Positions 7,833 to 27,160 of a stretch of 64,000 bases of DNA are shown one piece after another. This DNA comes from Patescibacteria group bacterium (GTDB lineage Bacteria; Patescibacteriota; Minisyncoccia; Phycocordibacterales; Phycocordibacteraceae), in assembly GCA_038064495.1 (NCBI GenBank), contig JBBTSZ010000002.1:280934-344933 (forward strand), written 5' to 3'. Made by a program: the position numbers and the translations under genes. The notes under the pieces are model-generated. The model was given only the letters and a program-made list of their open reading frames with translations. It made no database searches and was not told the origin of the DNA. Each line of letters starts with the position of its first letter. Position 1 is the first letter of the stretch.

Positions 7833-7903
7833 CGAGGTGGAAAACGTAAGGAACGTCGCTTGTTGACGGTAGACTTTCGGTATAGCTCTTAATTTACTAA
7901 CGT

Positions 7904-8173
7904 ATGACACACCTACCACCCATTAAAGTTGGTCTCGTCTTCGGGTTATTTCTCGCACTCCTGCATATCGCATGGTCTACACTTGTGGCTCTCCACCTCG
8001 GTCAACTTCTGCTTAATTTCTCTCTACGCATGCACATGATCCGGCCTGCATTCACGGTGGAACCATTTGATATAGGGCGAGCACTTGGACTCGTCATTAT
8101 TGCTTTTTGTATTGGTTACATTGTGGGACATGTGTTCGCTAAAATATGGAACCTGGTCGCGCACGGGTCGTAG
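7904..8173 (+). CDS. small membrane protein
   Basis: 89 aa with three hydrophobic helices. Confidence 0.35.
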   Translation: MTHLPPIKVGLVFGLFLALLHIAWSTLVALHLGQLLLNFSLRMHMIRPAFTVEPFDIGRALGLVIIAFCIGYIVGHVFAKIWNLVAHGS

Positions 8174-8944
8174 CTACAGACCGAGTGACGTAAGAAATGT
8201 AGAGAGTTCCTTTCCTTCAAGACGCCTATAGCCACCGACAGGGAGATTCCCCAAGGTAACATTCAGTATAGAAAGTCGTTTCAGGTCCCGTACCTCGTTG
8301 TGCATAGCGACCACCATACGCCGAATTTGATGCTTTTTACCTTCGGTAAGAGTAATGCGAAACTTTGATTCACCCGTCACTTCTACATGCGCCCTACGTG
8401 TCACGTAGCCTTCAATATCAACCCCCTTTTCCATGTGCTCAGCAAATGAAGGGCGTAGAGGTAGTTTCGTTGTCACCTCATAGGTTTTGCTGTGGTCCCG
8501 ATCCGGGTGGAGAAGTCGGTCCGTAACCCTCCCATCATTCGTAAGAAGTAAGAGCCCTGCGGAAGCTTTATCAAGACGGCCAAGTGGAAACAGGCGGAGC
8601 CGCTTCAAATCACTCGGAAGCATAGCAAGCACATCTTGCTCACCCTTTTCTTCTGACTGGGTCACAAGTCCTTTGGGCTTGTTGAAGGCGAGGTACACGT
8701 AGGTACGTAGCGGGCGTGATTTCACCTCCACGACATCCGTTTCCTCCACCTTATCTCCAAGCACGGCTTTCTTACTGTTGATAGTCACTAAACCCTTTTC
8801 GATAAGGGTATCGGCATCACGCCTCGTAGCATGTCCTTGGTGCGCAAGGAATTTGTTTAACCGCATAGGATAGAGCGGAGTGGCGGGCTCGGGTGGAGGA
8901 ATACGACGCCGAGAAGGTACAGACATAGTGAGACTGTAGCACAA
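8174..8944 (-). CDS. pseudouridine synthase, RsuA/RluB family, with N-terminal S4 domain
   Basis: S4 motif MRLNKFLAHQGHATRRDADTLIEKGLVTING, then LAFNKPKGLVT and the catalytic-Asp block GRLDKASAGLLLLTNDG. The true start is probably an internal Met. Confidence 0.8.
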   Translation of the reverse strand: MCYSLTMSVPSRRRIPPPEPATPLYPMRLNKFLAHQGHATRRDADTLIEKGLVTINSKKAVLGDKVEETDVVEVKSRPLRTYVYLAFNKPKGLVTQSEEKGEQDVLAMLPSDLKRLRLFPLGRLDKASAGLLLLTNDGRVTDRLLHPDRDHSKTYEVTTKLPLRPSFAEHMEKGVDIEGYVTRRAHVEVTGESKFRITLTEGKKHQIRRMVVAMHNEVRDLKRLSILNVTLGNLPVGGYRRLEGKELSTFLTSLGL

Positions 8945-9045
8945 CGGACGGATGAAAGAGTACGGAAGGGACAGCGTCTAATTCTGTGGAAAACGTGGAT
9001 TGTAAACTTTGCGCGTTCGGACCGGCACGGTACCATAGGAGCACA

Positions 9046-9321
9046 ATGAACGACTTTCTCAAGATGGATATTTTCTTCGTGGTGGCCACGCTCGCCGTCG
9101 TTGTTTTGACACTCCTTCTTGTTGTGGTGCTCATTCGTGTACTTCGTATTCTTAAAAACATTGACCGCATTTCTCAGATGGTGGAAGAAGAGGGACAGAG
9201 AATCCGAGAAGATGTGGCTGATGTACGGGCAAAGATAAAAGAAGAAGGATTCAAACTCTTCAGTCTCTTCAATATTTTCAAACCCTCACTGAAACGACGA
9301 CGTTCTGCTAAGAAATCGTAA
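9046..9321 (+). CDS. small membrane-anchored protein, DUF948-like
   Basis: TM helix followed by a charged coiled segment. Confidence 0.35.
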   Translation: MNDFLKMDIFFVVATLAVVVLTLLLVVVLIRVLRILKNIDRISQMVEEEGQRIREDVADVRAKIKEEGFKLFSLFNIFKPSLKRRRSAKKS

Positions 9322-9335
9322 TTAACTTCATACCT

Positions 9336-9773
9336 ATGGCAACAAAGAAAACTACAAACAAGGGAGCTTCAGTAGCGAGTGCAGCTGCGCTCGCTGGTGC
9401 CGCAGCAGCAGGAGCTACGTATTATTTTTATGGTACTAAGAATGCAAAGAAACACCGCCAAGCAGCAAGTGCATGGGCGAAAGGTCTGAAGCGTGACGTC
9501 CTTAAGGGTGCTAAGTCCTTGAAGAAGATTGATGCAAAGACGGTCGCGCGCGTGGTGGATGATGCTGCATCAATGTACGAAAGCGCACGGGGTGTTACGA
9601 AAGCTGATGTGAAAAAGGCCGCGTCTGAACTTAAGAAGAATTGGAAGATGGTGGAGAAAGAACTCACCCCTTCTAAGGTCGTGAAGCGTGCTCTTGACGA
9701 AGGTATGAAGCACGCAACGAAAGCAGTAAAAACTGCTAAGAAAGCAGTTAGGAAAGCAACAAAAAAACGTTAA
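9336..9773 (+). CDS. Lys/Ala-rich basic protein
   Basis: 145 aa of low-complexity K/A-rich sequence, followed by a clean terminator. Confidence 0.45.
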   Translation: MATKKTTNKGASVASAAALAGAAAAGATYYFYGTKNAKKHRQAASAWAKGLKRDVLKGAKSLKKIDAKTVARVVDDAASMYESARGVTKADVKKAASELKKNWKMVEKELTPSKVVKRALDEGMKHATKAVKTAKKAVRKATKKR

Positions 9774-13266: not shown

Positions 13267-13599
13267 ATGACCTTCATCCATTGGCTCATCACTGCCGTAG
13301 CAATTTTGATTGCGGCGTATCTTATCCCGGGTGTTTCCGTAACCCTTGTCGGTGCACTCGTACTCGCCATTGTGCTCGGAATTATCAATATGTTTTTCAA
13401 ACCCATCATCACGCTTTTAACGCTTCCCATTAATATACTCACGCTCGGCATATTTTCGCTCGTGGTGAATGCACTCCTCATCATGTTGTCCGCCATCATT
13501 GTTCCGGACTTCTCTGTTGATGGCTTCTGGACCGCGCTTCTCTTCTCCATCGTCGTTTCGCTCGTCACTGCCTTTCTTGGCATGATGGTGCGTAAATAA
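13267..13599 (+). CDS. DUF360 / phage-holin-4-like four-TM membrane protein
   Basis: 110 aa with four TM helices. The sequence resembles YvlD/holin-4 superfamily proteins. Confidence 0.55.
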   Translation: MTFIHWLITAVAILIAAYLIPGVSVTLVGALVLAIVLGIINMFFKPIITLLTLPINILTLGIFSLVVNALLIMLSAIIVPDFSVDGFWTALLFSIVVSLVTAFLGMMVRK

Positions 13600-13661: not shown

Positions 13662-14129
13662 TTATACCGGCTCAAGGATAGCTTCCTCGCTGTCGGCTGT
13701 CACCGTATCGACATCAATCGACCGCGTGTGCTCCTGAAGCAGGGTTTTCCAGACCGCAGTCAGATGAGCATAGGCGACTCCAACATCGCCGTCCGCGTAT
13801 TCTGGCTTTCTGGCAACATAGAAACCATAGTCACCAGCTGCCTCCTGACTAAGGCAGACCCGTTCCCGCATGCAAGAGTAGGGGGTATGGTTTGCATCCA
13901 GTTCAGCAAGCACGCGGCCCCTTCGTGTATGAGTGTATGACACGTCAAGCTGCGCAAGCATGCAGGTGATAGGACAGCCGATGTCGAGTTTGTCCACGTC
14001 GATGAATTTTTGCCAACCGTTCGGCTGTGTCCGTTCGAGAAGCGCGTAACCGCGCTTCGCTGCCTGCGTGAGCTGTCCGAAGTCAACGACTGACGACATC
14101 TTGGTCGCCACTGGTATTCCGTATTTCAT
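13662..14129 (-). CDS. paralog A of a tandem pair of unknown ~150-aa cytoplasmic proteins
   Basis: ATG preceded by GGGAGG at 5-nt spacing. Shares AAKRG..L.ER.P.GWQK.ID.D.L.IG.P.TCMLAQL and D.GF.V.R.P motifs with the neighbouring gene. Has its own terminator. Confidence 0.55.
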   Translation of the reverse strand: MKYGIPVATKMSSVVDFGQLTQAAKRGYALLERTQPNGWQKFIDVDKLDIGCPITCMLAQLDVSYTHTRRGRVLAELDANHTPYSCMRERVCLSQEAAGDYGFYVARKPEYADGDVGVAYAHLTAVWKTLLQEHTRSIDVDTVTADSEEAILEPV

Positions 14130-14147
14130 ACAAGCCTCCCATAAAAT

Positions 14148-14167
14148 CTCAGGCACCATTACCCGAG
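14148..14167 (-). promoter_or_regulatory. conserved 5' leader hairpin of paralog A
   Basis: On the minus strand the element is stem ctcggg, loop taatggtg, stem cctgag, located 25-45 nt upstream of the ATG. The equivalent hairpin upstream of paralog B has different stem sequence but the same loop core. Confidence 0.4.
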
Positions 14168-14250: not shown

Positions 14251-14682
14251 TTACGCCATTTCGAGCATGCGCTCGGACTCGGTTTCGTGTCCATCATCCG
14301 CAGCTGGTGTGAGGTCTTCTGTCAGAAGTTTCCTCCACTCTCCCGTCAAGTACTGATAGACAATTCCGTTAGGTTCGCGGGTTCCTTCGGTCGGATACCG
14401 GGAGACCGAGAAGCCGAGATCGGAACAATCCTCGTCCTTCAGGCCGAGATAGTCGCGCATAACAGCGTAACTGGGCTGTTCAGAAACCTCCTGAGTCACC
14501 GCAAGCTGGGCAAGCATGCACGTGTCCGGCCTGCCGATATTGAGCCGGTCCAGGTCGATGCCCTTCTGCCAGCCGGTCGGCATGCGCTCGTTCAGGAAAT
14601 CATGCCCACGCTTTGCTGCATTCCGAAGATACTCGCTACCGCTTACGGGCAACACATCATCATCAAGTGTTCGTAGTTTCAT
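14251..14682 (-). CDS. paralog B of the tandem pair
   Basis: ATG preceded by GGGAGG at 5-nt spacing. About 35% identity to paralog A in conserved blocks. Confidence 0.55.
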   Translation of the reverse strand: MKLRTLDDDVLPVSGSEYLRNAAKRGHDFLNERMPTGWQKGIDLDRLNIGRPDTCMLAQLAVTQEVSEQPSYAVMRDYLGLKDEDCSDLGFSVSRYPTEGTREPNGIVYQYLTGEWRKLLTEDLTPAADDGHETESERMLEMA

Positions 14683-14701
14683 CGTTACCTCCCATGTAAA
14701 T

Positions 14702-14719
14702 TCGAGCACCATTGCTCGA
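14702..14719 (-). promoter_or_regulatory. conserved 5' leader hairpin of paralog B
   Basis: On the minus strand the element is stem tcgagc, loop aatggt, stem gctcga. It covaries with the paralog A hairpin. Confidence 0.4.
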
Positions 14720-14795
14720 ATGCAGTCTGGCACTACGGTACTCCTACCGTTGAAAAAGTAAATCCTCAGGAGTTTGCACGGTATACTAGACCCTA

Positions 14796-17525
14796 ATGGA
14801 GGGCCCTCGTACACCACTCGCGTCAACAGAGGACGAGCTCGCATATTTGCGTGCAGAAGTGGCGCGCAAAGAGGCTGAGCTGGCTCATCTGAAAGAGCGT
14901 CCGAGCCGGGAGGAGATTGTACGTGACCGGTTGAAAGAGCATAAAGACGCAGATGCGTCGGTTCTTGCGAGTGAGTACAAGCTTCCCGCTACCGAAGTTG
15001 CGCAGGTGGTACTCAACCTTTCACCGGAGCAAAACGATGAGACCATTGCTGAGCTGCGGGCGGTTATGGAAGAAAAGGGTATTAAGAACGCGCTTACGGT
15101 GCTTGATGCACTCAATAACCCCCACCTGGAAGATGACTTTCATCGTTTCCTCGTGCAATACCTCCTTGCCGGGGTACCGGTGAAGGGGCTTGAAGAAGGA
15201 CAACCCGCGTGGAAGGCACTCCGCATGACGTTGTATGAGATTGCGCTCCCTGAGACAGATACCAAAACGGACCAAAATCAGAAAGTGAGAACGCTTAAGG
15301 AGTTGGTCTCTGCGATGGAGCAATTCTATTCAGGCATGCTCAGCGTTGAAAATGCAGTTAAGAATGAACCCCCGTATTTTACGCTTGAGCTTGCGGTTCC
15401 TGTAAATTCCCCGGTGCTGCAATTTTATGCGGCAGTTCCGAATAGCAAGCGCGATTTGTTTGAGAAACAACTCCTCGCGATTTTTCCAAACGCGCGTCTT
15501 ACCATTCAGCCAAACGATTACAATGTCTTTGTAGAAGATGGGACATCCTTTGGTGCTTTTGCAACGCTGAAAGACCGTCACATGCTTCCCCTGAAGCAGT
15601 ACGACGAATTTGATTACGATCCGATTAACTCTATTCTAAACGCGTTCGCAAAAATCTCAGCAGAAGGTGAAGGAGCGTCGCTTCAAATCGTGATTCAACC
15701 CGCAGGCAGTCACTACACGGACCATTACCGTCGTGTGTTGGCAGAACTTCGCAAAGGGGAGAACAGGTACCGAGCGTTCAATACCCCAGAGACCTTTGTG
15801 GGTGACCTCGCACGAGAAGCATTCGGACTCCTTAAGACTTCGCAGAAAGCGCTTGATCCATCCAAGGCTGACAAAGTCGCGATTGAACAGGTGGAGCGAA
15901 AAATTGGTTCACCTATCGTGGATACCAATATCCGCATTGTGGTTTCTTCCGAAGATGCTGTCCGTGCTGAATCCATACTTTCTGAACTTGAATCCTCGTT
16001 CAATCAGTTTGAAAATACGATTGGGAATCGGTTTGCATTCTATCGCGAGAAAGAGAAAGATAAGAAAAAGCTATTTCATAACTTTACCTTCCGTCTTGCC
16101 ACAAAGGGCAGCACACTTGCGCTCTCACTTCGTGAACTCACGACGGTGTACCATTTCCCACCGAAAGGTATTACGTCAACACCGCATCTGGCTCAGTCTC
16201 GCTTTTCTTCTGCACCGGCTCCTGCTGGTATGCCCTCTGACGGCATCGTGCTTGGTGTAAATGAGTACCGTACGGCAAAGACTGAAGTGCGGCTTTCTCC
16301 CGAAGACCGTCTGCGCCATATGTACGTGGTGGGGCAGACCGGTACCGGTAAAACGTCCTACATGAAGACCTTGATTGAGCAGGACATTAAAGACGGCAAC
16401 GGCGTGTGCTTCATTGACCCACACGGTAACGACATCTTGGACGTACTCGCCTCTATTCCGCCTTCGCGCTATGAGGACGTGATTTATTTTGACCCAGCGG
16501 AGATTTCTCGCCCGTTCGGGCTCAATTTGCTTGAGTACGATGAAGACCACCCGGAACAAAAGACCTTTATCGTAAACGAACTTCTCGCCATCTTCAGAAG
16601 ACTCTACGGAGACGTGCCGGAGTCTATGGGTCCTGCGTTTGAGCAGTACTTTAGGAACGCTACACTCCTCGTCATGGAAGACCCTGCAAGCGGTTCAACA
16701 CTCATGGATATTAGTCGCGTGCTTTCTAATAAACCATTCCGTGACTATAAACTAGGGAAGTCAAACAACCCGATTGTAAATCAGTTTTGGAAGGAGATTG
16801 CGACCCAAGCAGAGGGAGAAGCCTCTCTTGCAAACATCGTTCCGTATATCACTAACAAATTTGACGACTTCACCGCAAACGACTTTATGCGTCCGATTAT
16901 TGGACAACAGGAAAGTTCCTTCAAGTTCCGTGACGTGATTGATGGCAAGAAGATTTTGCTCGTGAATTTGTCCAAAGGACGTCTTGGCGAGAGGAACGCA
17001 AACCTTCTTGGACTTATCTTGGTTGGTAAGCTTTTCATGGCAGCACTGTCGCGAGCCGATAATCCACGAGGCGACTTCCCGCCGTTCTATCTCTATATTG
17101 ATGAGTTCCAAAACATTACGACCGATTCTATCCCTGGCATTTTGTCTGAAGCTCGTAAGTACAAACTCTCGCTCACCATTGCGCACCAGTTCTTGTCACA
17201 GGTAGATGAGAAAATCAGGAATGCCGTGTTTGGTAACGTCGGCTCCATGACCGTCTTCCGTGTCGGACAGGAGGATGCTGAATTCTTTGAAAAGCAATTT
17301 GCTCCGGTAGCGAGCGCATCCGACTTCACTTCCATTGAAAACTACAATGCGTACGTCAAACTGCTCGTGCACGGCGTACCGCAGAAGCCATTTACTATCC
17401 ACACACTTCCGCCAGTCGCTGGTCGCGAAGCGCAGGTGGACGATCTTCGTCAGCTTTCCTACCTGACCTATGGCCGCGACCGTAGGGCGGTGGAAGAAAA
17501 CATACGAGCGCGCTACCTTTCTTAA
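14796..17525 (+). CDS. TraD/VirD4-like (type IV coupling protein family, FtsK/HerA superfamily) P-loop ATPase with novel ~450-aa N-terminal domain and no TM segment
   Basis: The C-terminal half carries Walker A VVGQTGTGKTSYM, FIDPHGNDI, Walker B FYLYIDEFQN and a following TIAHQF. The N-terminal half is soluble and starts with a coiled coil (ELAYLRAEVARKEAELAHLKE), with no recognisable domain. A TATACT -10-like hexamer ends 9 nt before the ATG, so a leaderless transcript is possible. Confidence 0.75.
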   Translation: MEGPRTPLASTEDELAYLRAEVARKEAELAHLKERPSREEIVRDRLKEHKDADASVLASEYKLPATEVAQVVLNLSPEQNDETIAELRAVMEEKGIKNALTVLDALNNPHLEDDFHRFLVQYLLAGVPVKGLEEGQPAWKALRMTLYEIALPETDTKTDQNQKVRTLKELVSAMEQFYSGMLSVENAVKNEPPYFTLELAVPVNSPVLQFYAAVPNSKRDLFEKQLLAIFPNARLTIQPNDYNVFVEDGTSFGAFATLKDRHMLPLKQYDEFDYDPINSILNAFAKISAEGEGASLQIVIQPAGSHYTDHYRRVLAELRKGENRYRAFNTPETFVGDLAREAFGLLKTSQKALDPSKADKVAIEQVERKIGSPIVDTNIRIVVSSEDAVRAESILSELESSFNQFENTIGNRFAFYREKEKDKKKLFHNFTFRLATKGSTLALSLRELTTVYHFPPKGITSTPHLAQSRFSSAPAPAGMPSDGIVLGVNEYRTAKTEVRLSPEDRLRHMYVVGQTGTGKTSYMKTLIEQDIKDGNGVCFIDPHGNDILDVLASIPPSRYEDVIYFDPAEISRPFGLNLLEYDEDHPEQKTFIVNELLAIFRRLYGDVPESMGPAFEQYFRNATLLVMEDPASGSTLMDISRVLSNKPFRDYKLGKSNNPIVNQFWKEIATQAEGEASLANIVPYITNKFDDFTANDFMRPIIGQQESSFKFRDVIDGKKILLVNLSKGRLGERNANLLGLILVGKLFMAALSRADNPRGDFPPFYLYIDEFQNITTDSIPGILSEARKYKLSLTIAHQFLSQVDEKIRNAVFGNVGSMTVFRVGQEDAEFFEKQFAPVASASDFTSIENYNAYVKLLVHGVPQKPFTIHTLPPVAGREAQVDDLRQLSYLTYGRDRRAVEENIRARYLS

Positions 17526-17528
17526 TCT

Positions 17529-19007
17529 ATGAAATTCGGAAGCTTTGAAATACCACCCCGCCCAACTTCTGCTGAAGGTACGGAAGATTTTGTGGAGACA
17601 CCACGTGAGAAAAAAGAAGCACTAGAAAAGGTCGTGACAAGCGCAGCAGCACGAATTGAAGCATCCGAGAGAACGAAGGACACGCTACCACTGGATTCGG
17701 TGGAGCGACTCGTCTCACCACTAACCGAAGAAAAAATCTCGGAAGCTCTTGGACGTCTGCGCGCTCGCCTGAACGCTCCAGAGGAAAAGCTTGCGAAGAC
17801 GATAACGCTACTCCCGGAAGAGGTGCAACAGGCATATACCGAGAGTACGGTTCCACAATCCGCAGAAACTTCCAAAAAAGGTCGCAGGAACATGCTACTT
17901 GCCGCAGCTGGTCTCTTTTCGCTTGGTACCGGTGCGTTGAGTGAAAAAGCAGAAGCACAGACCAATTCCACCCAACCATCCTATGAACGGCTGTTCGGAA
18001 ACCAGTCTTTTGAGGCAAAGGCATCACCCGAACACATACCAAGCCCCGATAAACTCTTTCTAGACTTACGACAGTCACTTTTTGAAAAGTACGGGAGCTT
18101 GGAACGTGCTCCAGACAAAGTGTCACAGATTATTATGACGGACCGGAATTTTGACATTGTTGTTCGCGCACTTGGTTTTATCCAAGGCAAAGAAACAGCG
18201 ACGCTTGAAGCCGGCGATCACCTTTCCATAGATACTCACGGCCAACTCCTTTTTCATTCAAAAAAAGGAACACTGGTGCTTATGACGTCTTCCCGGCTGG
18301 ACTCGTTTAAAGTGCAAAACACGTATCGTGGACCACTGCACCCTCAGTCCCAAGAAGAGTATGCCCAGGCAGAGCGAGATGAAGTGGAAACAGCATATCC
18401 CGAGGCGAAGCCAGAAAAAAAGCGAGAGGTTGCTCCTGGTGTGCCCTACGTAGGAGGACATGCACAGGACCTTCCAAAGAAGCCAAGCACACCGAAACCG
18501 CGCTCGCCTGGCCCCGACACTCCGCTGTATCCAGCAGATCCTACGCGGCCAGGTCCTATGCCAAACCGGCCTCCGGCCACTCCGCCTCCTGGGGAGTCAA
18601 TCACTGAAGATAGGGAAGCAAGGCCAAAACCAAATCCGCCGGAAGTTGGTAGTACACCACCTCCTACTCCTGAAAAAGCAACAACACCAGAAGCATTCTT
18701 TGCACCTTCCACTGCTGGTATCTATCAGGATGCTGCTGGTAATCTATTTGTACTCGGGGGGTCTATTAGCGACCGCCTTATCTTGGGCCAGGAATATCTC
18801 ACCAAAAGCGAACATCTCGGTAAAAAACTACAACTGTTTACCATTACTGAAAGTGCTGATCCGCAGACGGGAGTACCTGACGTGAGCATGTTGGTTGAGG
18901 ATGGTAGTGGAAAAGTAAATCTCCAACCCATCGTTCGCGATCCAAGAACCGGAATACCGGTCGCACCGCCGACTAAGGATGAGCTGGTACGAAAAATTGA
19001 ATCATGA
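17529..19007 (+). CDS. bitopic membrane protein with proline-rich extracytoplasmic linker
   Basis: Starts 3 nt after the ATPase stop. A ~118-aa cytoplasmic N-terminus is followed by one TM helix (MLLAAAGLFSLGTGAL), a ~100-aa globular part, and a ~90-aa P/T/K-rich linker (PKKPSTPKPRSPGPDTPLYP...PPTPEKATTPE). A C-terminal domain follows. Confidence 0.6.
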   Translation: MKFGSFEIPPRPTSAEGTEDFVETPREKKEALEKVVTSAAARIEASERTKDTLPLDSVERLVSPLTEEKISEALGRLRARLNAPEEKLAKTITLLPEEVQQAYTESTVPQSAETSKKGRRNMLLAAAGLFSLGTGALSEKAEAQTNSTQPSYERLFGNQSFEAKASPEHIPSPDKLFLDLRQSLFEKYGSLERAPDKVSQIIMTDRNFDIVVRALGFIQGKETATLEAGDHLSIDTHGQLLFHSKKGTLVLMTSSRLDSFKVQNTYRGPLHPQSQEEYAQAERDEVETAYPEAKPEKKREVAPGVPYVGGHAQDLPKKPSTPKPRSPGPDTPLYPADPTRPGPMPNRPPATPPPGESITEDREARPKPNPPEVGSTPPPTPEKATTPEAFFAPSTAGIYQDAAGNLFVLGGSISDRLILGQEYLTKSEHLGKKLQLFTITESADPQTGVPDVSMLVEDGSGKVNLQPIVRDPRTGIPVAPPTKDELVRKIES

Positions 19008-19315
19008 CCGCAACACTCACGCATCGAAAGAAACTACGTGACATCACCAATTCACTACATGGTGAACGCCTTTCCCTTGCTGAACAAGATTCACTCACTA
19101 TCCAGGTGCACTCACTCGTCTTCAGAAGTGCGCTGGTTCGTTTTCTGGAGCAGCTAGAACCGAAGGAACGCGAGCTGTATCGAGCACTTATCGCTCGTGG
19201 AGCGTCGGAAGAGGAATGCCATGATTTCCTCGCTCATCATAAGGGTGAAATGGCGCTTTGTGTGGGGAATGCCATTGACGAACTGGCGAGTGATATACTG
19301 TCCGGGACAGATTAG
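19004..19315 (+). CDS. small cytoplasmic hypothetical protein
   Basis: The ATG overlaps the upstream stop in ATGA fashion. 103 aa. Confidence 0.5.
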   Translation: MTATLTHRKKLRDITNSLHGERLSLAEQDSLTIQVHSLVFRSALVRFLEQLEPKERELYRALIARGASEEECHDFLAHHKGEMALCVGNAIDELASDILSGTD

Positions 19316-19330
19316 ATTAGACCATATCCT

Positions 19331-19873
19331 ATGAACATTACTGCCACTGCCGTCGCCGTCACGCTAGCGCTTGTCGTCGCGGTCGCTTTCTTGTTTTTTG
19401 GGCCCGCGATTTTCACACCGTTTCAGCCACAAACACAGCAAGCACCTGATTCACTAACTGCATCAACCACTATGGAGACAGAAGGACAAGGAGTAACGCT
19501 TGGCGAGAGTAGCCAAGGAGGAGCTCAACAACAGCCACAACAACTTCCAACCACACTTACGGTAACGGATGAGGTTGTCGGAACCGGGGCAGAAGCGAAG
19601 GCAGGGGACACCGTCACCATGAACTATGTTGGTTCACTTCCAGACGGCACCGTATTTGACGCCTCCGCAAAGCACGGTCAGGCATTCACCTTCACGCTCG
19701 GTGTTGGACAGGTGATTAGTGGTTGGGATAAGGGTATTGTTGGTATGAAAGTTGGCGGTAAGCGTAAGCTCATCATTCCACCGGATATGGCCTACGGTAA
19801 TCGTGACCTCGGTAGTATCCCACCAAACTCCACGCTCATCTTTGAAGTAGAAATGGTAAAGATTGGTTCGTAA
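19331..19873 (+). CDS. membrane-anchored FKBP-type peptidyl-prolyl cis-trans isomerase
   Basis: N-terminal TM helix and a Gln/Thr-rich linker precede the FKBP core (GDTVTMNYVGSLPDGTVFDAS...FTFTLGVGQVISGWDKGIVGMKVGGKRKLIIPPDMAYG). Confidence 0.85.
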   Translation: MNITATAVAVTLALVVAVAFLFFGPAIFTPFQPQTQQAPDSLTASTTMETEGQGVTLGESSQGGAQQQPQQLPTTLTVTDEVVGTGAEAKAGDTVTMNYVGSLPDGTVFDASAKHGQAFTFTLGVGQVISGWDKGIVGMKVGGKRKLIIPPDMAYGNRDLGSIPPNSTLIFEVEMVKIGS

Positions 19874-19893
19874 GTAGCTCGCATCAGATATAG

Positions 19894-19930
19894 AAAAACC
19901 GCCGAGACATTCGTCTCGGCGGTTTTCGTT
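19894..19930 (+). terminator. bidirectional rho-independent terminator
   Basis: An A-run, a 10-bp stem ccgccgagac/gtctcggcgg with a short loop, then a T-run. It sits between convergent genes. Confidence 0.7.
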
Positions 19931-19945
19931 GGCATGAGCCAACGA

Positions 19946-22539: not shown

Positions 22540-24609
22540 ATGAGCTTTAAGATCCATTCCCCGTTTCCACCTGCAGGCGACCAGCCAGAGGCTATACGGA
22601 AACTCACCGACGGTGTGAAGCAGGGTCTGACCCACCAGACCCTGCTTGGCGTTACCGGCTCGGGGAAAACCTACACCATAGCGAATGTCATTCAGAACAT
22701 CGGAAAGCCGACCCTCGTGATGGCGCACAACAAAACCCTTGCCGCTCAGCTTGCGCAGGAGTACACCGAATTCTTTCCTGAAAACGCCGTACACTATTTT
22801 GTCTCCTACTACGACTACTACCAACCAGAGGCGTATATCGCTCACTCGGATACCTATATAGAGAAAGAAGCACAGATAAACGCGGAGATAGACCGTCTGC
22901 GCCACGCGGCAACGCAAGCACTTCTCACGCGCGATGATGTCATCATTGTCGCCTCCGTTTCTGCTATTTATGGACTTGGCTCGCCTGCTGAATATGAAAA
23001 GAGACACGTAAAGCTTTTGATAGGAGGAAAAGAGAATCGCTCCTCACTTATCCGAAAGCTGGTCGGCATTCAGTTTGAACGAACGAATGCGGACCTCACG
23101 CCGGGAACCCTCCGTGCGATTGGGAACGCGGTAGAAGTAATGCCCGTAAACGAGCGTGCCGTCTACAAAATTACCTTTGATGCCGACGTTGTTGCACATA
23201 TTGATGCACTGGATCCTGTCAGTCGTGCGAAGACAGGAACACCCGAGTCGCTGTTTATCTTCCCTGCAAAGCACTTTATTACCGGCGAAGAGGAACGTCT
23301 TGTTGCGATTGAGGATATTAAGAGGGAACTGGAGGAGCGTCTTGAACAATTGAAACGCGAAGAAAAGCCCCTTGAACATGAGCGGTTGAAGCGCCGCACA
23401 CAGTATGACCTCGCCATGATACGAGAAGTGGGCTACACCGGCGGCATTGAGAACTACTCTCGTCATTTTGATGGGCGCGCTCCGGGCGAGCCACCACATA
23501 CACTCCTTTCCTACTTTCCGCACAAAAAAGATGGTAGTGCTGATTTCCTCACGGTGCTTGATGAGTCCCACGTTACCGTCTCACAAATTGGTGGGATGTA
23601 TGCGGGTGATCGTTCTCGTAAAGACGTGCTGGTTGAGCACGGCTTCCGACTGCCGTCTGCTCGTGACAATCGTCCCCTACGGTTTGAAGAATTTGAGGAA
23701 CGCATTGGGCAGGTCATCTATACGTCAGCAACACCCGGAAATTTTGAACGTGAGCATTCCATAGCTCCCACTGGCCAGATTGTGGAGCAGATTATTCGTC
23801 CAACGGGACTGATTGACCCCGAGCTCATAGTGCGACCGGTTACCGAGACCGGCGACTTCAAAGGCCAAGTGGCGGACTTCATTGCTGAATCAGAGACCGT
23901 TATCAAGGGCGGTGGACGTGTGCTTGCCACCACACTCACCAAACAAATGGCGGAGGACCTCTCAGAGTTTCTGCGCGCAAAGAATATCAAGGCGGAGTAT
24001 CTGCACTCCGATATTAAAACCATTGAGCGTATTGATATCCTCACCAATTTCAGACGAGGAGTCTTTGATATTCTCGTAGGTGTGAACTTGCTTCGTGAAG
24101 GACTGGACCTACCAGAGGTGGAGCTCGTGGGTATTCTTGATGCGGACAAGGAAGGTTTTCTGCGCTCAGAGACTTCCCTCATTCAAACCATTGGACGAGC
24201 CGCACGAAATATTCTCGGACGCGTGATTCTGTATGCCGACGTGATGACTGGCTCCCTCACGCGCGCTATTGGGGAGACCAATCGTCGCCGCACCATCCAA
24301 GTTGCTTATAACGAAGCGCATGGGATCACCCCGGTCACCATCCACAAAGAGATTCGTGACATTGCCGAGTCTATGAGGAGTGAGCATCAGAAGACCGTGC
24401 AAGGCCTCCTTGAATTTGATCGTCTCTTGTATGCAGAAAATCCTGCAGCCTTTATCAAAGAAAAGCGTGAACAAATGAGTGAAGCCGTTGAAGCACTTGA
24501 TTTTGAAACTGCCGCGTTGCTTCGCGATGAAATCTACGAGCTTGAAGGAAAAGAACCAAAAGCAAAGAAGACGACGAAAAAAGCAACCACACGTAGACGC
24601 GGTCGCTAG
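22540..24609 (+). CDS. uvrB: excinuclease ABC subunit B
   Basis: Shows PAGDQPEAIRKL, Walker A GVTGSGKT, the beta-hairpin region, helicase motifs, and a C-terminal UVR domain (ALLRDEIYELEG). Confidence 0.95.
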   Translation: MSFKIHSPFPPAGDQPEAIRKLTDGVKQGLTHQTLLGVTGSGKTYTIANVIQNIGKPTLVMAHNKTLAAQLAQEYTEFFPENAVHYFVSYYDYYQPEAYIAHSDTYIEKEAQINAEIDRLRHAATQALLTRDDVIIVASVSAIYGLGSPAEYEKRHVKLLIGGKENRSSLIRKLVGIQFERTNADLTPGTLRAIGNAVEVMPVNERAVYKITFDADVVAHIDALDPVSRAKTGTPESLFIFPAKHFITGEEERLVAIEDIKRELEERLEQLKREEKPLEHERLKRRTQYDLAMIREVGYTGGIENYSRHFDGRAPGEPPHTLLSYFPHKKDGSADFLTVLDESHVTVSQIGGMYAGDRSRKDVLVEHGFRLPSARDNRPLRFEEFEERIGQVIYTSATPGNFEREHSIAPTGQIVEQIIRPTGLIDPELIVRPVTETGDFKGQVADFIAESETVIKGGGRVLATTLTKQMAEDLSEFLRAKNIKAEYLHSDIKTIERIDILTNFRRGVFDILVGVNLLREGLDLPEVELVGILDADKEGFLRSETSLIQTIGRAARNILGRVILYADVMTGSLTRAIGETNRRRTIQVAYNEAHGITPVTIHKEIRDIAESMRSEHQKTVQGLLEFDRLLYAENPAAFIKEKREQMSEAVEALDFETAALLRDEIYELEGKEPKAKKTTKKATTRRRGR

Positions 24610-24668
24610 ATACACAGTACAGAAATACTAGAGACTGCACGACACCCGTTCAGTGCTACTATTTCTCT

Positions 24669-25766
24669 ATGAGTGTTCGTACGCTCCTTGGTCTTCTTTT
24701 CCTTGTTACGCTACTTATTGTAGCGGGTTTTATTGCGTTCACGCTTAACATCTTCTGGGTACTTCTAAATGGCCTATTGCCAGCGACCGTAGACGTTGCA
24801 GGAAATATTCTTCCAACACTATTCGTCCTTATCATTGGTGGGTTCCTGTTGTTCTCGCTCATTGTGCTCCTATTCTCCTTTCTCTACCTCTTGATTGACC
24901 GCCTCATTGTTCAGCCGATGAAACACATTGGTACGGCCATGCATGAATTCGCTGAACACAATCATCAAGTCGAGCTTCCGCCGTTTTCTCGCTCCACAAA
25001 CGAAGTGCGTTGGCTTGCTGACGTATTCATTGAGTTCACGAATAGTGTTGAGCGTGTACATAACCGTGATATGGAAGTTTCTCGAATGAAATCGGACTTC
25101 ATCTCCACTGCAGCGCACCAGCTCCGTACGCCCATGACCGGTATCCGCTGGGCACTTGAGGCACTCCAAACTACGGGCGTAACGGCGGACCAAAAGGCGC
25201 TCATTGATAGTGCAACCGATAAAAGTCATGACCTTGTCGCCATCATTGGTACGCTGCTTGATATTTCGTCAATTGAATCCGGGAAATACAAGTATCGTTT
25301 TGAGGCACTTGATATGGACCTCGTCATGCAGGAGATTGTGAACGACTTCAGTCCACTCGCTCAAACACGTCAGGTTACGCTCTTTTATGCTCGAAGCGAA
25401 ACGCCACTAGCAAAAGCGCGTGCCGACCGAGAACGTATTAAATGGGTCTTGAATAATCTTATTGAAAACGCAATTCGCTACACCCCGTCAGGTGGTTCAG
25501 TACAAGTCTCACTTGAAGCCGGGCTCGGACGCATCTTTGTTAAGGTTCGTGATACAGGAATTGGTATTCAAGAGGGAGACCGTGCCAGTATCTTTGAACG
25601 TTTCTACCGCGCCCAGAATGCTGTGCAGAAGGAGAACGCAGGAAATGGTCTTGGTCTCTATATTGCCCGCACCATTGCCAGGGATCATGGTGGAGACCTC
25701 AATTTTGAGACAAATAAGGAGGGTCCGGGGACGACGTTCTCGTTCAGTCTCCCTTTCGCCAACTAA
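24669..25766 (+). CDS. sensor histidine kinase (two N-terminal TM helices, HisKA, HATPase_c)
   Basis: H-box AAHQLRTPMTGIRWALEAL, N-box LNNLIENAIRYT, and G-boxes DTGIGI and GNGLGLYIA. Confidence 0.85.
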   Translation: MSVRTLLGLLFLVTLLIVAGFIAFTLNIFWVLLNGLLPATVDVAGNILPTLFVLIIGGFLLFSLIVLLFSFLYLLIDRLIVQPMKHIGTAMHEFAEHNHQVELPPFSRSTNEVRWLADVFIEFTNSVERVHNRDMEVSRMKSDFISTAAHQLRTPMTGIRWALEALQTTGVTADQKALIDSATDKSHDLVAIIGTLLDISSIESGKYKYRFEALDMDLVMQEIVNDFSPLAQTRQVTLFYARSETPLAKARADRERIKWVLNNLIENAIRYTPSGGSVQVSLEAGLGRIFVKVRDTGIGIQEGDRASIFERFYRAQNAVQKENAGNGLGLYIARTIARDHGGDLNFETNKEGPGTTFSFSLPFAN

Positions 25767-25911
25767 CCTGAGCCGGGCTTACAGCCGACATTCTTTGTTC
25801 TTCTCTGCGCTCAAACATTCAACGTACTAGATGTACGTCTCAAGTTTTCCCTTGAGAAAGCCTCGAATCTGGGGCTTTTAATCCAGACTCAGTGGATGGT
25901 AGACTGGAGCT

Positions 25912-26385
25912 ATGCCTGACTCACAATTCATCCTCGTCGTTGAAGACGACCCTATTCTTAAGAACCTGCTTGGCCATACGCTTGCCGGGAAATATCAAAC
26001 CCTCTATGCAAGTGATGGCAATGAGGCTATCGCTCTCTTTGACCAGTACAAGCCAAAGCTCGTTCTCCTAGACCTTATGCTTCCAACGATGGATGGTTTT
26101 GCAGTGCTTGAAACACTTCGTAAACGTCCCGACGACTCCGCACACACACCGATTATTGTGGTGTCTAATCTCGGTCAGCAGTCAGATAAAGACAAGGCAC
26201 TAGCGCTCGGTGCAAATGATTACCTCATTAAGGCAGAGGTACCGATTGAAGATATTGTAAAAAGAATCGAAGCACTTCTCGGTGTTGTTCCGGCTGCTCC
26301 TGCTGAAGTAGTCCCCGTAGCTCCCGCGGCGCCACTAGAAGTTCCGCCAACTTCAACAACTCCAGCAACACCGCCGGTCGCATGA
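25912..26385 (+). CDS. response regulator, receiver domain only, with Pro/Ala-rich tail
   Basis: Shows VVEDDP, LVLLDLMLP (phospho-Asp) and the conserved Lys region. The C-terminal 40 aa are PAAPAEVVPVAPAAP-type low complexity. Confidence 0.8.
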   Translation: MPDSQFILVVEDDPILKNLLGHTLAGKYQTLYASDGNEAIALFDQYKPKLVLLDLMLPTMDGFAVLETLRKRPDDSAHTPIIVVSNLGQQSDKDKALALGANDYLIKAEVPIEDIVKRIEALLGVVPAAPAEVVPVAPAAPLEVPPTSTTPATPPVA

Positions 26386-27065
26386 GCACTGAAGGTTTTA
26401 GAAATAAGACTTCTGACGCTGACGCTGTAGCGGAGGCCCGCGAACAAGCAGATCCCACTACCTACTCAGCACTTCCGTCCGAACTTGAAGACGGAGCGTG
26501 GCACAAACTCAATCCCAATAAAACACCTGCGCTTCAGCAGGCAGCCGTTCGTTTATTGAAAGGCCTCATTCACGTGTCGGATGTTATCGAGAAAGACGGG
26601 GAATTTTACTCAAAGGAAATGGCACATGAAAGCATTGCTGAAAAGATGTCAGAAGATGATATTCAAGCAGACGCCGAACTCATCAACCTTATCTTGAACG
26701 ATGTCGACCATATTTATAATACGGACGCGGTTCTTCCGACCCATAATGTGAAAGTAGAAAAGGGAACCGCAAGCTTCCATGACTTTGAGGCAGACATGGA
26801 GTCGGTGCCGCACCGCATGCATCGGAATTTGAATGAACGAGCTCGAGCACGCTTTGACCGTAAGTTGGAACAGGTGCAGGAACGCTTTGCATCACCCGAA
26901 GGCGAGGTCCTCGCCCGGAGTATTTTTGACGACATGATGAAGCACGAACCAAAGAGCTTTGAGGGAAGTTTTGATGCATTTTACGGACTTCTGAAAACAC
27001 GCATTGAAAAAGCTGGACAGTTGTCTCTCGAGCAGAAAGAATTACTTGATACGTACGGGAAATAG
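26382..27065 (+). CDS. hypothetical protein, translationally coupled to the receiver gene
   Basis: The ATG overlaps the upstream stop in ATGA fashion. No recognisable domain. Confidence 0.45.
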   Translation: MSTEGFRNKTSDADAVAEAREQADPTTYSALPSELEDGAWHKLNPNKTPALQQAAVRLLKGLIHVSDVIEKDGEFYSKEMAHESIAEKMSEDDIQADAELINLILNDVDHIYNTDAVLPTHNVKVEKGTASFHDFEADMESVPHRMHRNLNERARARFDRKLEQVQERFASPEGEVLARSIFDDMMKHEPKSFEGSFDAFYGLLKTRIEKAGQLSLEQKELLDTYGK

Positions 27066-27160
27066 TTCGCTTGGTCGCGTCACTTCAGTCTTCGCGCTAT
27101 ACTAGCCTTCGTACCGGTCCCGCCACGGATCGGCAAAAGCCGTACCTATCTTAGACTTTC

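What the first reader, a model, noticed from the sequence alone, without database searches (positions are those of the whole stretch)
14796..19930. Operon headed by a TM-less TraD/VirD4-like coupling-protein ATPase fused to a novel 450-aa N-terminal domain, followed by a proline-rich bitopic protein, a small protein and a membrane FKBP PPIase
The C-terminal half of the 909-aa protein has the hallmarks of type IV coupling proteins / the FtsK-HerA superfamily: Walker A VVGQTGTGKTS, the FIDPHGND motif resembling TrwB/TraD IDPKG, Walker B YLYIDEFQN, and a following AHQ. Two things are unusual. It has no N-terminal transmembrane anchor. And it carries a ~450-aa N-terminal region I cannot assign, beginning with a coiled coil. 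The three downstream genes are tightly coupled (3-nt gap, ATGA overlap, 15-nt gap) and end at a strong bidirectional terminator. Gene 2 is a bitopic membrane protein with a ~90-aa Pro/Thr/Lys-rich extracytoplasmic linker. Gene 4 is a membrane-anchored FKBP prolyl isomerase, which is a natural partner for a proline-rich exported substrate. No VirB-type T4SS components, relaxase or pilus genes are in the window. A TATACT hexamer ends 9 nt upstream of the ATG, suggesting a leaderless mRNA. Together this looks like a self-contained ATPase-driven export, assembly or DNA-handling module, not a conventional conjugation system.
Basis: partly seen in the sequence, partly recalled or inferred. Interest (0 to 1): 0.75.

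Follow-up and report, generated by a model that had tools for sequence, protein, structure and literature searches.

The report
Anchorless VirB4-shaped coupling-type ATPase operon
A highly conserved gene of Paceibacteria (ultra-small "dark matter" bacteria) encodes a motor ATPase whose rear half resembles the DNA-coupling protein of conjugation machines and whose unassigned front half has the predicted shape of the VirB4 docking domain, which gives a concrete handle on the unexplained "orphan" coupling proteins of these bacteria.

Summary

It is a core chromosomal gene of Paceibacteria, with more than 580 species-level hits and 82% identity in the ATPase half among close orthologues. No T4SS or relaxase genes lie nearby. 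In Bacillus and Embleya plasmids and in phage SPO1, relatives sit directly upstream of a Replic_Relax nickase, which is the coupling-protein position.

A sister Paceibacteria subfamily keeps one N-terminal transmembrane helix. This clade replaced it with a 135-aa helical extension.

The order g1, g2 (fast-evolving membrane protein), g3 (DUF5663), FKBP holds in about 48 of 58 loci of one clade and not elsewhere. The "self-contained export module" reading is therefore only partly supported.

Verdict: a new variant of a known kind, of moderate interest.

The parts
14782..14787 (+). TATACT -10-like box, 8 nt upstream of the g1 ATG; no Shine-Dalgarno motif; probable leaderless start
   Evidence: Sequence read. 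A TATA[AC]T-type box starts at -13/-14 in 70 of 76 orthologous loci, and an SD core is present in 4 of 76. The same arrangement occurs at 9 of 66 other genes in the window.
14796..17525 (+). g1: 909-aa DUF8128 plus T4CP-like P-loop ATPase, with no transmembrane segment
   Evidence: ORF. Precomputed Pfam PF26449 (DUF8128) plus DUF87. DUF87 at 2.7e-7 and TraG-D_C at 4.7e-5. AF2 mean pLDDT 84.7. Maximum KD19 1.53.
14796..15200 (+). g1 aa 1-135: clade-specific helical extension (long helix 11-33, conserved LEDDFHRF at aa 111-118). It occupies the place of the N-terminal TM helix of the sister subfamily.
   Evidence: AF2 secondary structure. 57% mean identity among close orthologues and essentially absent from the ~800-aa subfamily. 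The sister subfamily starts with one TM helix.
15201..16205 (+). g1 aa 136-470: DUF8128 core with the VirB4 N-terminal-domain-like fold
16206..17525 (+). g1 aa 471-909: RecA-like ATPase with an all-helical insertion (aa ~588-716). Walker A at 16326-16358, IDPHG at 16410-16433, Walker B at 17088-17114, AHQ at 17181-17189.
   Evidence: Motif positions. Family profile against PDB: TrwB 6.7e-8, DotL 4.9e-6, HerA 0.01. Foldseek to TrwB: TM (target-normalised) 0.62-0.69 over ~415-460 columns. 82% mean identity among 29 orthologues.
17529..19007 (+). g2: 492-aa fast-evolving protein. It has a charged N-terminal region (aa 1-115), one weak hydrophobic segment (aa 122-138, nt 17892-17942), a conserved middle region, a Pro-rich stretch (aa 291-385, nt 18399-18683) and a conserved ~100-aa C-terminal domain (nt 18696-19001).
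   Evidence: In 48 loci a 447-1267-aa ORF starts within ~15 nt of the end of the g1 match. The ORFs are mutually related in patches; for example, L001 aa 390-491 matches L014 aa 699-797 at 36% identity. No Pfam, NCBIfam, PHROG, PADLOC or PDB match.
19004..19315 (+). g3: 103-aa helical protein, a divergent DUF5663 member
   Evidence: 39 positional orthologues align along their whole length. Three typical members hit PF18908 DUF5663 at 5e-5 to 1e-3, and one passes the gathering score. The window's own copy gives no Pfam hit.
19331..19873 (+). g4: membrane-anchored FKBP-type prolyl isomerase (hydrophobic helix within aa 1-33; FKBP_C at aa 88-176, nt 19592-19858)
   Evidence: FKBP_C at 1.7e-35. 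KD 2.64 helix. Found downstream of g1 in 58 of 81 loci.
19894..19945 (.). Bidirectional intrinsic terminator between convergent g4 and the 199-aa minus-strand gene. It is a 13-bp GC-rich hairpin flanked by A5 and T4, plus a second hairpin at 19926-19945.
   Evidence: Sequence. Fold energies -25 and -37.5 kcal/mol, z -5.6 and -9.0, 0 of 200 shuffles as stable. The second hairpin is listed.

Best explanation
g1 is an anchor-less member of the DUF8128-T4CP family, a P-loop motor of the FtsK/HerA superfamily (inferred to be hexameric, as its relatives are). Its ATPase half is of the VirD4/TrwB coupling-protein type. Its N-terminal half has the predicted fold of the VirB4 N-terminal domain, the part that in R388 binds the VirB3 and VirB8 tails at the membrane (established knowledge from the TrwK structures).

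In mobile elements of monoderms and in Bacillus phages, relatives sit immediately upstream of a Replic_Relax nickase. On the two plasmids examined this is inside a T4SS gene cluster. The ancestral job of the family is therefore inferred to be handing nicked DNA to a membrane channel.

In Paceibacteria the gene became a highly conserved chromosomal gene, detached from virB4 and relaxase genes. In this clade it lost the single N-terminal membrane helix that the sister subfamily keeps, and gained a 135-aa helical extension. It is probably transcribed as a leaderless mRNA together with g2 (a fast-evolving membrane protein), g3 (DUF5663) and a membrane FKBP.

The most likely mechanism is that ATP hydrolysis in a ring of g1 drives a macromolecule, DNA being favoured, towards or through the cell membrane. 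The VirB4-like domain and the helical extension would dock the ring on membrane partners supplied in trans: the cytoplasmic tail of g2, the nearby 2-TM stand-alone DUF8128 paralogue, or T4SS inner-membrane parts encoded elsewhere.

Shown here: domain composition, predicted folds, conservation, gene contexts. Inferred: hexamer formation, membrane docking, the nature of the substrate.
For: - ATPase type: the family profile finds TrwB (6.7e-8) and DotL (4.9e-6) first among solved structures. Foldseek TM to TrwB is 0.62-0.69. TraG-D_C and DUF87 pass Pfam's own cut-offs. Relatives carry PF10412, PF02534 and PF12696.
- Coupling-protein position next to a Replic_Relax nickase: B. licheniformis plasmid, Embleya plasmid with PrgI and an ATP-binding protein upstream, SPO1 gp27.4/gp27.3.
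- Core-gene status: 583 confirmed hits among GTDB species genomes. The top 120 homologues are 68-100% identical over the full length. The ATPase half is 82% identical among orthologues. The literature reports 5,713 VirD4-like homologues in 2,918 of 3,035 Patescibacteria genomes, only 148 of them near virB4 (PMC12102498).
- Loss of the anchor: all 36 sampled members of the ~800-850-aa subfamily start with a strongly hydrophobic helix followed by basic residues. The ~905-935-aa subfamily has none.
- Trans partners: a g2-like ORF with a hydrophobic segment (48 loci) and a DUF5663 ORF (39 loci) follow g1, with spacing of a few nucleotides. A 2-TM stand-alone DUF8128 protein lies just outside the window.
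Against: - No experiment exists on any family member.
- No VirB4, PrgI or Replic_Relax relative was found by tblastn in 1.39 Mb around the Paceibacteria homologues, so any link to a T4SS in these bacteria is unproven.
- The T4CP homologue of Saccharibacteria was reported as non-essential (PMC12102498). It is unknown whether that protein is of the DUF8128 type.
- g2 and g3 are absent from 8 or more loci and from the 53%-identity clade, so they cannot be obligatory anchors.
- Phage homologues (SPO1, G) lie in genomes without a full T4SS, so the motor can probably work without a channel.
- The sequence-level link of DUF8128 to the VirB4 N-domain is weak: hhalign probability 34%, E 4e-4, covering only the last N-domain unit plus the P-loop.
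- The hydrophobic region of g2 is weak here and looks like a hairpin in some orthologues, so its topology is uncertain.
Confidence: 0.45

Rival explanations
1. g1 is a purely cytoplasmic DNA translocase or helicase used in chromosome maintenance (HerA/FtsK-like work such as end processing, segregation or repair). The downstream genes are neighbours by conserved gene order only.
For: - It is TM-less.
- It has a DUF87/HerA-central hit and HerA structures among the fold hits.
- Its very high conservation is typical of housekeeping genes.
- It is embedded in housekeeping synteny: TGT, UvrB, UvrA and UvrC downstream, or SecY-Adk-Map-g1-Ndk in another clade.
- Homologues occur in lytic phages, next to replication and nicking genes.
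Against: - The sister subfamily and the Embleya relative carry an N-terminal hydrophobic helix, which suggests a membrane-anchored ancestral state.
- The N-domain has the fold of VirB4's membrane-docking domain.
- The T4CP profiles score better than HerA.
- Tight coupling to a membrane protein occurs in most loci of this clade.
Confidence: 0.2
2. The four genes form a self-contained ATP-driven export or assembly module in which g1 drives export of the proline-rich g2 and the membrane FKBP folds it outside the cell.
For: - The g1-g2-g3-FKBP order is conserved in about 48 of 58 loci of the clade, with gaps of 3-15 nt.
- g2 is proline-rich and evolves fast, as surface proteins do.
- FKBP is membrane-anchored.
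- A single terminator follows g4.
Against: - FKBP still directly follows g1 in loci that lack g2 and g3: L013, L023, L024, L027, L029.
- The whole stretch from the holin-like gene to UvrB is syntenic, so adjacency alone does not show a functional link.
- Other clades of the same ATPase family have none of these neighbours.
- In the three mobile-element contexts examined, the g1 relative is paired with a DNA nickase, not with an exported protein.
- g2 needs only Sec to insert.
Confidence: 0.15
3. The locus is a remnant or a part of an ordinary conjugative or mobile element, with g1 as its standard coupling protein.
For: - Relatives in Bacillus and Embleya plasmids sit in conjugation clusters.
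- NCBI names relatives 'type IV secretory system conjugative DNA transfer family protein'.
Against: - No relaxase, VirB4, integrase or repeat boundaries were seen.
- GC content is flat across the window at about 0.50.
- The gene is present at a syntenic housekeeping position in dozens of species.
- Orthologues are 60-80% identical, as expected for vertical inheritance.
- The flanks hold no T4SS genes.
Confidence: 0.05

Closest known systems
VirD4/TrwB-type type IV coupling proteins (T4CP; R388 TrwB, Legionella DotL)
   Same: The ATPase half is shared: Walker A, an IDPxG-like motif, Walker B/TraG-D_C, and a RecA-like core with an all-helical insertion. TrwB and DotL are the best solved relatives by sequence profile, and TM to TrwB is 0.62-0.69.
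   Different: g1 has no N-terminal transmembrane domain. About 470 extra N-terminal residues include a VirB4-like domain. No relaxase or T4SS genes are nearby. NCBIfam T4CP models score far below their cut-offs (49 bits against 366).
VirB4 ATPases (R388 TrwK; TcpF/ConE in Firmicutes)
   Different: No VirB4 sequence model is matched: TIGR00929 E 0.016 and VirB4_plasma E 0.0023, and no AAA_10 or CagE_TrbE_VirB hit. Profile-profile comparison against the TcpF family gives only 34% probability. No VirB3, VirB6 or VirB8 genes lie beside it.
T4CP-position ATPases paired with Replic_Relax nickases in monoderm mobile elements and Bacillus phages (B. licheniformis plasmid NZ_CP035190 885-aa protein; Embleya plasmid 812-aa protein; SPO1 gp27.4; phage G gp156; PHROG 5156)
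   Same: These are homologous beyond the ATPase half. Alignments to g1 start within the DUF8128 region, at g1 residue 165-172 (SPO1, phage G), 263 (Embleya) or 357 (Bacillus), and run to residues 809-893. phrog_5156 covers aa 144-903 at E 2.5e-74. The Bacillus and phage proteins have no N-terminal hydrophobic helix.
   Different: They are encoded on mobile elements or phages, directly upstream of a nickase, and are only 22-27% identical to g1. They lack the 135-aa helical extension and the g2/g3/FKBP partners. None has been characterised experimentally as far as the searched literature shows.
The 'orphan' VirD4-like homologues of Patescibacteria described by Quinonero-Coronel et al. 2025 (PMC12102498)
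   Same: By its HMM hits g1 would be counted among them. They are abundant (5,713 in 2,918 genomes), mostly far from virB4, and have been suggested to be exapted.
   Different: In the passages read, that paper does not describe the VirB4-like N-domain, the TM-less versus TM-anchored subfamilies, or the g2/DUF5663/FKBP operon.
TM-anchored DUF8128-T4CP subfamily of Paceibacteria (~800-850 aa; e.g. P0236, P0290)
   Same: It has the same DUF8128 core and ATPase: 29% and 51% identity.
   Different: It has one N-terminal TM helix instead of the helical extension. Its neighbourhood differs: small TM protein, FtsQ-type POTRA protein, 597-aa polytopic protein, ~160-aa protein, then the ATPase, then TrpRS.

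Membership tests
VirD4-type coupling protein (T4CP) | FtsK/HerA-superfamily nucleotide-binding domain with Walker A and B and the TraG-D_C region | tested here: met
   Motifs located. TraG-D_C at 23.7 bits exceeds the cut-off of 22. The family profile hits TrwB at 6.7e-8.
VirD4-type coupling protein (T4CP) | All-alpha domain inserted in the nucleotide-binding domain, and an overall TrwB-like fold | tested here: met
   The AF2 model has helices at aa ~588-716. Foldseek to TrwB gives TM 0.62-0.69 over nearly the whole chain. PF10412 scores below its cut-off in g1 itself (17.6 against 20.5) but is on record for relatives.
VirD4-type coupling protein (T4CP) | N-terminal transmembrane domain that anchors the hexamer | tested here: not met
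   Maximum KD19 is 1.53, in the ATPase core, and there is no N-terminal hydrophobic segment. This is a crude hydropathy test, not a dedicated topology predictor.
VirD4-type coupling protein (T4CP) | Genetic linkage to a relaxase and/or a T4SS | tested here: not met
   None in the window or its flanks. None by tblastn in 1.39 Mb around homologues. The rest of the genome could not be examined.
VirD4-type coupling protein (T4CP) | Curated family-model score (NCBIfam TraD/VirD4-like equivalogs) | tested here: not met
   The best score is 49.3 bits against a cut-off of 366 for SXT_TraD, and 40.8 against 250 for the CD1115 family.
VirB4 ATPase | Two-domain architecture with the characteristic N-terminal domain fold | tested here: met
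   [not shown]
VirB4 ATPase | Match to VirB4 sequence models (TIGR00929, AAA_10, CagE_TrbE_VirB) | tested here: not met
   TIGR00929 scores E 0.016 (13 bits against 643). There is no Pfam VirB4 hit. hhalign against the TcpF family gives 34% probability.
VirB4 ATPase | Adjacent VirB3, VirB6 and VirB8 genes | tested here: not met
   None are called in the window.
Pfam DUF8128 (PF26449) | Match to the family model | tested here: met
   A precomputed PF26449 hit is on record for the identical protein P0001 and for all listed homologues. The model is absent from the local Pfam copy, so the score was not recomputed.
HerA helicase | HerA N-terminal barrel (HAS) domain plus HerA-type ATPase, usually paired with NurA | tested here: not met
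   Only the ~50-residue P-loop stretch matches DUF87/HerA_C. HerA ranks below T4CPs in the profile search (0.01 to 0.05). The N-domain fold matches VirB4, not a HerA barrel. No NurA is in the window.
FKBP-type peptidyl-prolyl isomerase (g4) | FKBP_C catalytic domain | tested here: met
   PF00254 at E 1.7e-35, 121.6 bits against a cut-off of 21.1.
Pfam DUF5663 (g3) | Match to the family model | tested here: inconclusive
   The window's copy gives no hit. Positional orthologues score 19.8 to 24.1 bits against a cut-off of 23.7 and align with g3 over the full length.

The most novel reading that the evidence does not exclude
DUF8128-ATPases are a third lineage of T4SS-type motors, not described in the literature searched here. 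They keep the VirB4 docking domain but carry a VirD4-type engine, which would make them a surviving intermediate between the two signature T4SS ATPases. In Paceibacteria one branch shed its membrane helix and was domesticated as a near-universal housekeeping translocase. That branch works with its own fast-evolving membrane partner (g2) and a DUF5663 adaptor, independently of any conjugation system, for example in DNA or protein traffic with the host cell.
Probability: 0.2. Interest if true: 0.8.

Novelty: new variant of a known kind. Interest (0 to 1): 0.55.

Why it matters
Patescibacteria carry about two VirD4-like genes per genome, mostly far from their T4SS, and their role is an open question (PMC12102498).

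This work shows that at least this large Paceibacteria family is built like VirB4 at the front and like VirD4 at the back. It comes in an anchored and an anchor-less form, and it has relatives in the coupling-protein position of monoderm plasmids and in the tractable phage SPO1 (gp27.4, next to a nickase). Those findings give concrete things to test: candidate docking partners, DNA as the substrate, and a genetic model system.

The result also bears on how the two signature T4SS ATPases diverged.

If the conservative reading holds, it remains a useful re-annotation of DUF8128 as a VirB4-N-domain-like module.

Tried and rejected
- Anti-phage defence. PADLOC gave only generic ATPase-domain hits (mad8 8e-13, HerA), and nothing in the locus is defence-like. 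Rejected.
- Terminase or FtsK. The PHROG terminase and FtsK hits cover only the P-loop. Rejected.
- g2 and g3. Pfam, NCBIfam, PHROG, PADLOC and PDB sequence searches found nothing beyond a weak DUF5663 match for g3 orthologues.
- Sequence-level homology of DUF8128 to the VirB4 N-domain. hhalign of the family against a single VirB4 sequence gave nothing. Against a 20-sequence TcpF/VirB4 alignment it gave 34% probability over the last N-domain unit plus the P-loop. This is suggestive and colinear, but not proof.
- The afdb50 fold library was unavailable, so annotated AlphaFold-database relatives of the N-domain could not be surveyed.
- Taxonomy of distant representatives. The listing of cluster members returned names for only two clusters, Minisyncoccia and Paceibacterota.
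- Viral contigs. Thirteen loci were found, mostly relatives of the ATPase half only, with the best at 41% identity. Not followed up.
- pLS20. Its VirD4 has two N-terminal TM helices (PMC8557374), so the Bacillus plasmid relative found here is not the pLS20 type. By gene order it sits in an ICEBs1/Tn916-like (TcpF-type VirB4) cluster.
- The sigma-70 consensus scan did not list a promoter for g1. The evidence for the -10 box is comparative.

Full report
**1. Observation**

All four ORFs exist exactly as described: g1 14796-17525 (909 aa), g2 17529-19007 (492 aa), g3 19004-19315 (103 aa) and g4 19331-19873 (180 aa). They are separated by a 3-nt gap, a 4-nt ATGA overlap and a 15-nt gap.

The quoted motifs are at aa 511-521 (Walker A), 539-546 (FIDPHGND), 765-773 (Walker B) and 796-798 (AHQ).

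A hydropathy scan finds no membrane-helix candidate in g1. Its maximum 19-residue mean is 1.53, inside the ATPase core. g4 has a strong N-terminal helix (2.64). g2 has one weak Ala/Gly-rich segment (aa 122-138) after KKGRRN, and 29 prolines in aa 291-385.

g4 is an FKBP (PF00254, 1.7e-35).

The hairpin after g4 is very stable on both strands, with z-scores of -5.6 and -9.0.

Gene calls with precomputed Pfam hits cover the whole window, about 9 kb upstream and about 5 kb downstream. They show only housekeeping genes and no T4SS, relaxase or pilus gene. GC content is flat. The window contains two tRNA genes and no other Rfam match.

**2. What g1 is**

*C-terminal half.* It passes Pfam's cut-offs for DUF87 and TraG-D_C. 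It gives weak hits to the TraD, CD1115-VirD4-like and CedD models, far below their cut-offs. A profile of 60 family members finds TrwB (6.7e-8) and DotL (4.9e-6) first among all solved structures, then HerA. VirB4 is not found by sequence.

*N-terminal half.* It is not uncatalogued. The identical database protein and all homologues carry PF26449 (DUF8128). No paper in the searchable library mentions that name.

*Full-length model.* An AlphaFold model built on a 60-sequence alignment has mean pLDDT 84.7. Its best Foldseek hits are TrwK/VirB4 chains of R388 aligned over about 900 columns, that is both halves. Next comes TrwB over about 420 columns (target-normalised TM 0.62-0.69), then HerA and Cagbeta.

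*N-domain model.* The DUF8128 core alone (aa 135-470) was modelled with pLDDT 90.7 and pTM 0.89.
- The first 13 Foldseek hits are all TrwK.
- No other P-loop NTPase appears in the listed hits of either search, so the match must be to the VirB4 N-terminal domain and not to its RecA-like half.
- At the sequence level, a profile-profile comparison with a TcpF/ConE-type VirB4 family gives only a colinear 34%-probability alignment. It runs from the last N-domain unit into the P-loop.

*Conclusion on architecture.* g1 has VirB4 architecture with a VirD4-type motor. It is preceded by a 135-aa helical extension that is conserved within its clade and includes an invariant LEDDFHRF motif.

**3. Distribution and conservation**

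- The 120 best homologues are full-length, 68-100% identical, and named Patescibacteria, Parcubacteria or Paceibacterota.
- Two peptide patterns recover 583 confirmed relatives among GTDB species genomes. The best 80 are all Paceibacteria-type MAGs.
- Among 29 close orthologues, mean identity is 57% in the extension, 63% in DUF8128 and 82% in the ATPase half.
- A scan of 1.84 billion cluster representatives with aa 1-470 finds 990 clusters at E ≤ 1e-3 and 141 at E ≤ 1e-30. One subclass matches only from about residue 140.
- That subclass is about 800-850 aa long and also comes from Paceibacteria-type MAGs (Portnoybacteria, Pacebacteria). NCBI names it 'type IV secretory system conjugative DNA transfer family protein', and it carries PF26449, PF10412, PF01935 and PF02534.
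- All 36 sampled members of that subclass begin with one strongly hydrophobic helix followed by basic residues, and DUF8128 starts right after it. The ~905-935-aa subclass, which includes g1, has no such helix.

Being TM-less is therefore a derived trait of this clade, in which the helix was replaced by the helical extension.

The literature already records that Patescibacteria hold 5,713 VirD4-like homologues in 2,918 of 3,035 genomes. Only 148 lie near virB4, and exaptation has been suggested (PMC12102498). In the passages read, neither that paper nor the 2025 T4SS nomenclature review (PMC12857230) describes the N-domain.

**4. Relatives outside Patescibacteria give functional context**

PHROG 5156 (function unknown) matches aa 144-903 at 2.5e-74. 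tblastn finds phage G gp156 and SPO1 gp27.4 over most of the length. The ATPase half finds 444 plasmid records from Bacillus, Streptomyces, haloarchaea and others.

Three contexts agree with one another:
- On a 27.6-kb Bacillus licheniformis plasmid, a TM-less 885-aa relative (aligned to g1 357-873, E 5e-39) is followed by a Replic_Relax protein. An ICEBs1/Tn916-like gene series with a TcpF-type VirB4 comes next.
- On an Embleya plasmid the order is PrgI, XF1762 family, ATP-binding protein, the 812-aa relative (aligned to g1 263-893, E 1e-57, with one N-terminal hydrophobic segment), Replic_Relax, NlpC/P60.
- In SPO1, gp27.4 is followed by gp27.3, annotated 'replication initiation by nicking' and confirmed here as Replic_Relax (2.9e-12).

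In phage G, a gene annotated 'VirB-like' precedes gp156.

In mobile elements, therefore, the family sits where coupling proteins sit, beside a nickase. This is the basis for inferring DNA as the ancestral substrate.

By contrast, tblastn with these VirB4, PrgI and Replic_Relax proteins finds nothing in 1.39 Mb of sequence around the Paceibacteria homologues.

**5. The operon**

Across 81 loci, tblastn finds FKBP downstream in 58, a Phage_holin_4_2-like gene upstream in 57, TGT in 51 and UvrB in 47.

Between g1 and FKBP, 48 loci carry one large ORF (447-1267 aa, 4-11% proline) that starts within about 15 nt of the end of the g1 match. It has an Ala/Gly-rich hydrophobic region preceded by basic residues. 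In 39 of these loci it is followed by a ~100-aa ORF.

The large ORFs are related to each other only in patches: around the hydrophobic region, in a middle region and in a ~100-aa C-terminal domain. They therefore form one fast-evolving family. They have no Pfam match.

The small ORFs align over their full length, and typical members match DUF5663.

Five loci have FKBP within about 50-200 nt of g1 and no g2 or g3. Three more have only a short ORF in between.

In the 52-54%-identity clade none of these neighbours is present. In L075 the gene lies between SecY-Adk-Map and Ndk.

The TM-anchored subfamily has yet another conserved context: small TM protein, FtsQ-type POTRA protein, 597-aa polytopic protein, ~160-aa protein, the ATPase, then TrpRS.

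The four-gene arrangement is thus real and conserved, but it is clade-specific. The FKBP link cannot be told apart from general synteny.

**6. Expression signals**

A TATA[AC]T-type box starting 13-14 nt before the ATG is present in 70 of 76 orthologous loci. A Shine-Dalgarno core at the usual distance is present in 4. This supports a leaderless transcript.

Within the window, 9 of 66 genes have the strict box at that position, several more have near-variants, and only 9 have an SD core. The feature is therefore genome-wide.

**7. Mechanism**

The best-supported reading, at confidence 0.45, has two parts:
- g1 is a ring-forming ATP-driven translocase of the coupling-protein lineage, domesticated as a core gene.
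- The ring is positioned at the membrane through its VirB4-like domain and helical extension, by partners supplied in trans. Candidates are the cytoplasmic tail of g2, the 2-TM stand-alone DUF8128 paralogue just beyond the window, and T4SS membrane parts elsewhere in the genome.

DNA is the favoured substrate because of the nickase pairing in mobile elements.

The rivals are:
- a purely cytoplasmic DNA motor (0.2)
- an ordinary conjugative-element remnant (0.05)

What is shown here is the domain composition, predicted folds, conservation and contexts. Ring formation, docking and substrate are inferences.

**8. Verdict**

The thing is a new variant of a known kind: a coupling-type ATPase with a VirB4-type N-domain, here in an anchor-less form with its own clade-specific operon partners.

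Interest is moderate (0.55). The structural assignment of DUF8128 and the anchored/anchor-less split were not found in the searched literature, and they make the 'orphan T4CP' question of Patescibacteria testable. The family itself is already catalogued, however, and no function is demonstrated.

Noticed in passing
just outside the window, about 66011-67357 on the + strand (L088 18019-19365): A stand-alone 448-aa DUF8128 protein has two N-terminal hydrophobic helices (aa 26-49 and 52-72) and no ATPase. It aligns to g1 aa 139-481 (21% identity, E 3e-10) and ends where the ATPase of g1 begins. It lies between a sigma70_r4 protein and YceG. It could be a membrane partner or paralogue of the g1 N-domain.
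   Followed up: partly
[not shown]
   Followed up: no
window 13662-14159 and 14251-14712, minus strand: Two tandem paralogous genes (38% identity, E 9e-27) of unknown function share a GWQKxIDxDxLxIGxPxTCMLAQL motif. Each is followed by a strong hairpin terminator (14244-14214 and 13656-13624). They are inserted between the holin-like gene and g1 in this genome and were detected in only four other loci (L002, L003, L005).
   Followed up: partly
whole window: Shine-Dalgarno cores are rare (9 of 66 genes). Many genes have a TATA[AC]T or near-variant box ending about 7-8 nt before the start codon. This suggests widespread leaderless transcription in this organism.
   Followed up: partly
window 13267-13599, + strand: A 110-aa Phage_holin_4_2 (PF04020) family membrane protein is conserved upstream of g1 in 57 of 81 loci. 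In several loci it appears to be the gene directly upstream on the same strand. Whether it belongs functionally with g1 was not examined.
   Followed up: no
L082 4604-7967 and L084 4510-7993: The TM-anchored sister subfamily of the ATPase is preceded by a conserved block: a small 1-TM protein, an FtsQ-type POTRA protein (~265-274 aa), a 597-aa polytopic membrane protein (weak PMT_2 match) and a ~160-aa soluble protein. This could be a membrane complex for that ATPase, or simply cell-envelope genes.
   Followed up: partly
L093 (SPO1) 5881-9418; L095 (phage G) 3249-7391: SPO1 gp27.4 (906 aa, uncharacterised) is a full-length relative of g1 and sits directly upstream of the Replic_Relax nickase gp27.3. 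In phage G, a gene annotated 'VirB-like' (gp155) precedes the relative gp156, which is mis-annotated as MsbA-like.
   Followed up: partly
L089 (Sulfitobacter plasmid) 8004-9191; L096 (Bradyrhizobium plasmid) 5083-7209: The closest plasmid relatives of the ATPase half (33% identity, E ~1e-65) are a 395-aa ATPase-only protein next to transposases and a 708-aa protein flanked by CHAT-domain and TPR proteins. PADLOC model mad8 also matches g1 (8e-13). Some branches of this ATPase family may serve in defence-like systems.
   Followed up: no
window 40821-44459, + strand: A 1212-aa protein carries several PG_binding_1 domains, a GDSL lipase domain and DUF1996. It is a large secreted-looking peptidoglycan-binding hydrolase that could act on a host envelope.
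   Followed up: no
window 34227-36506, + strand: A 759-aa KAP-family P-loop NTPase lies in an otherwise housekeeping region, just after tRNA-Ala.
   Followed up: no
window 22540-31103: UvrB, then a histidine kinase and response regulator pair, a 227-aa protein, UvrA and UvrC are lined up on one strand. A two-component system is embedded within the excision-repair genes.
   Followed up: no
L099 6001-7224 (IMG/VR contig 3300015370_000561): A viral-collection contig encodes an ATPase-half relative at 41% identity (g1 aa 491-908). This is closer than any isolate phage or plasmid hit, and it may be a Patescibacteria-associated element.
   Followed up: no
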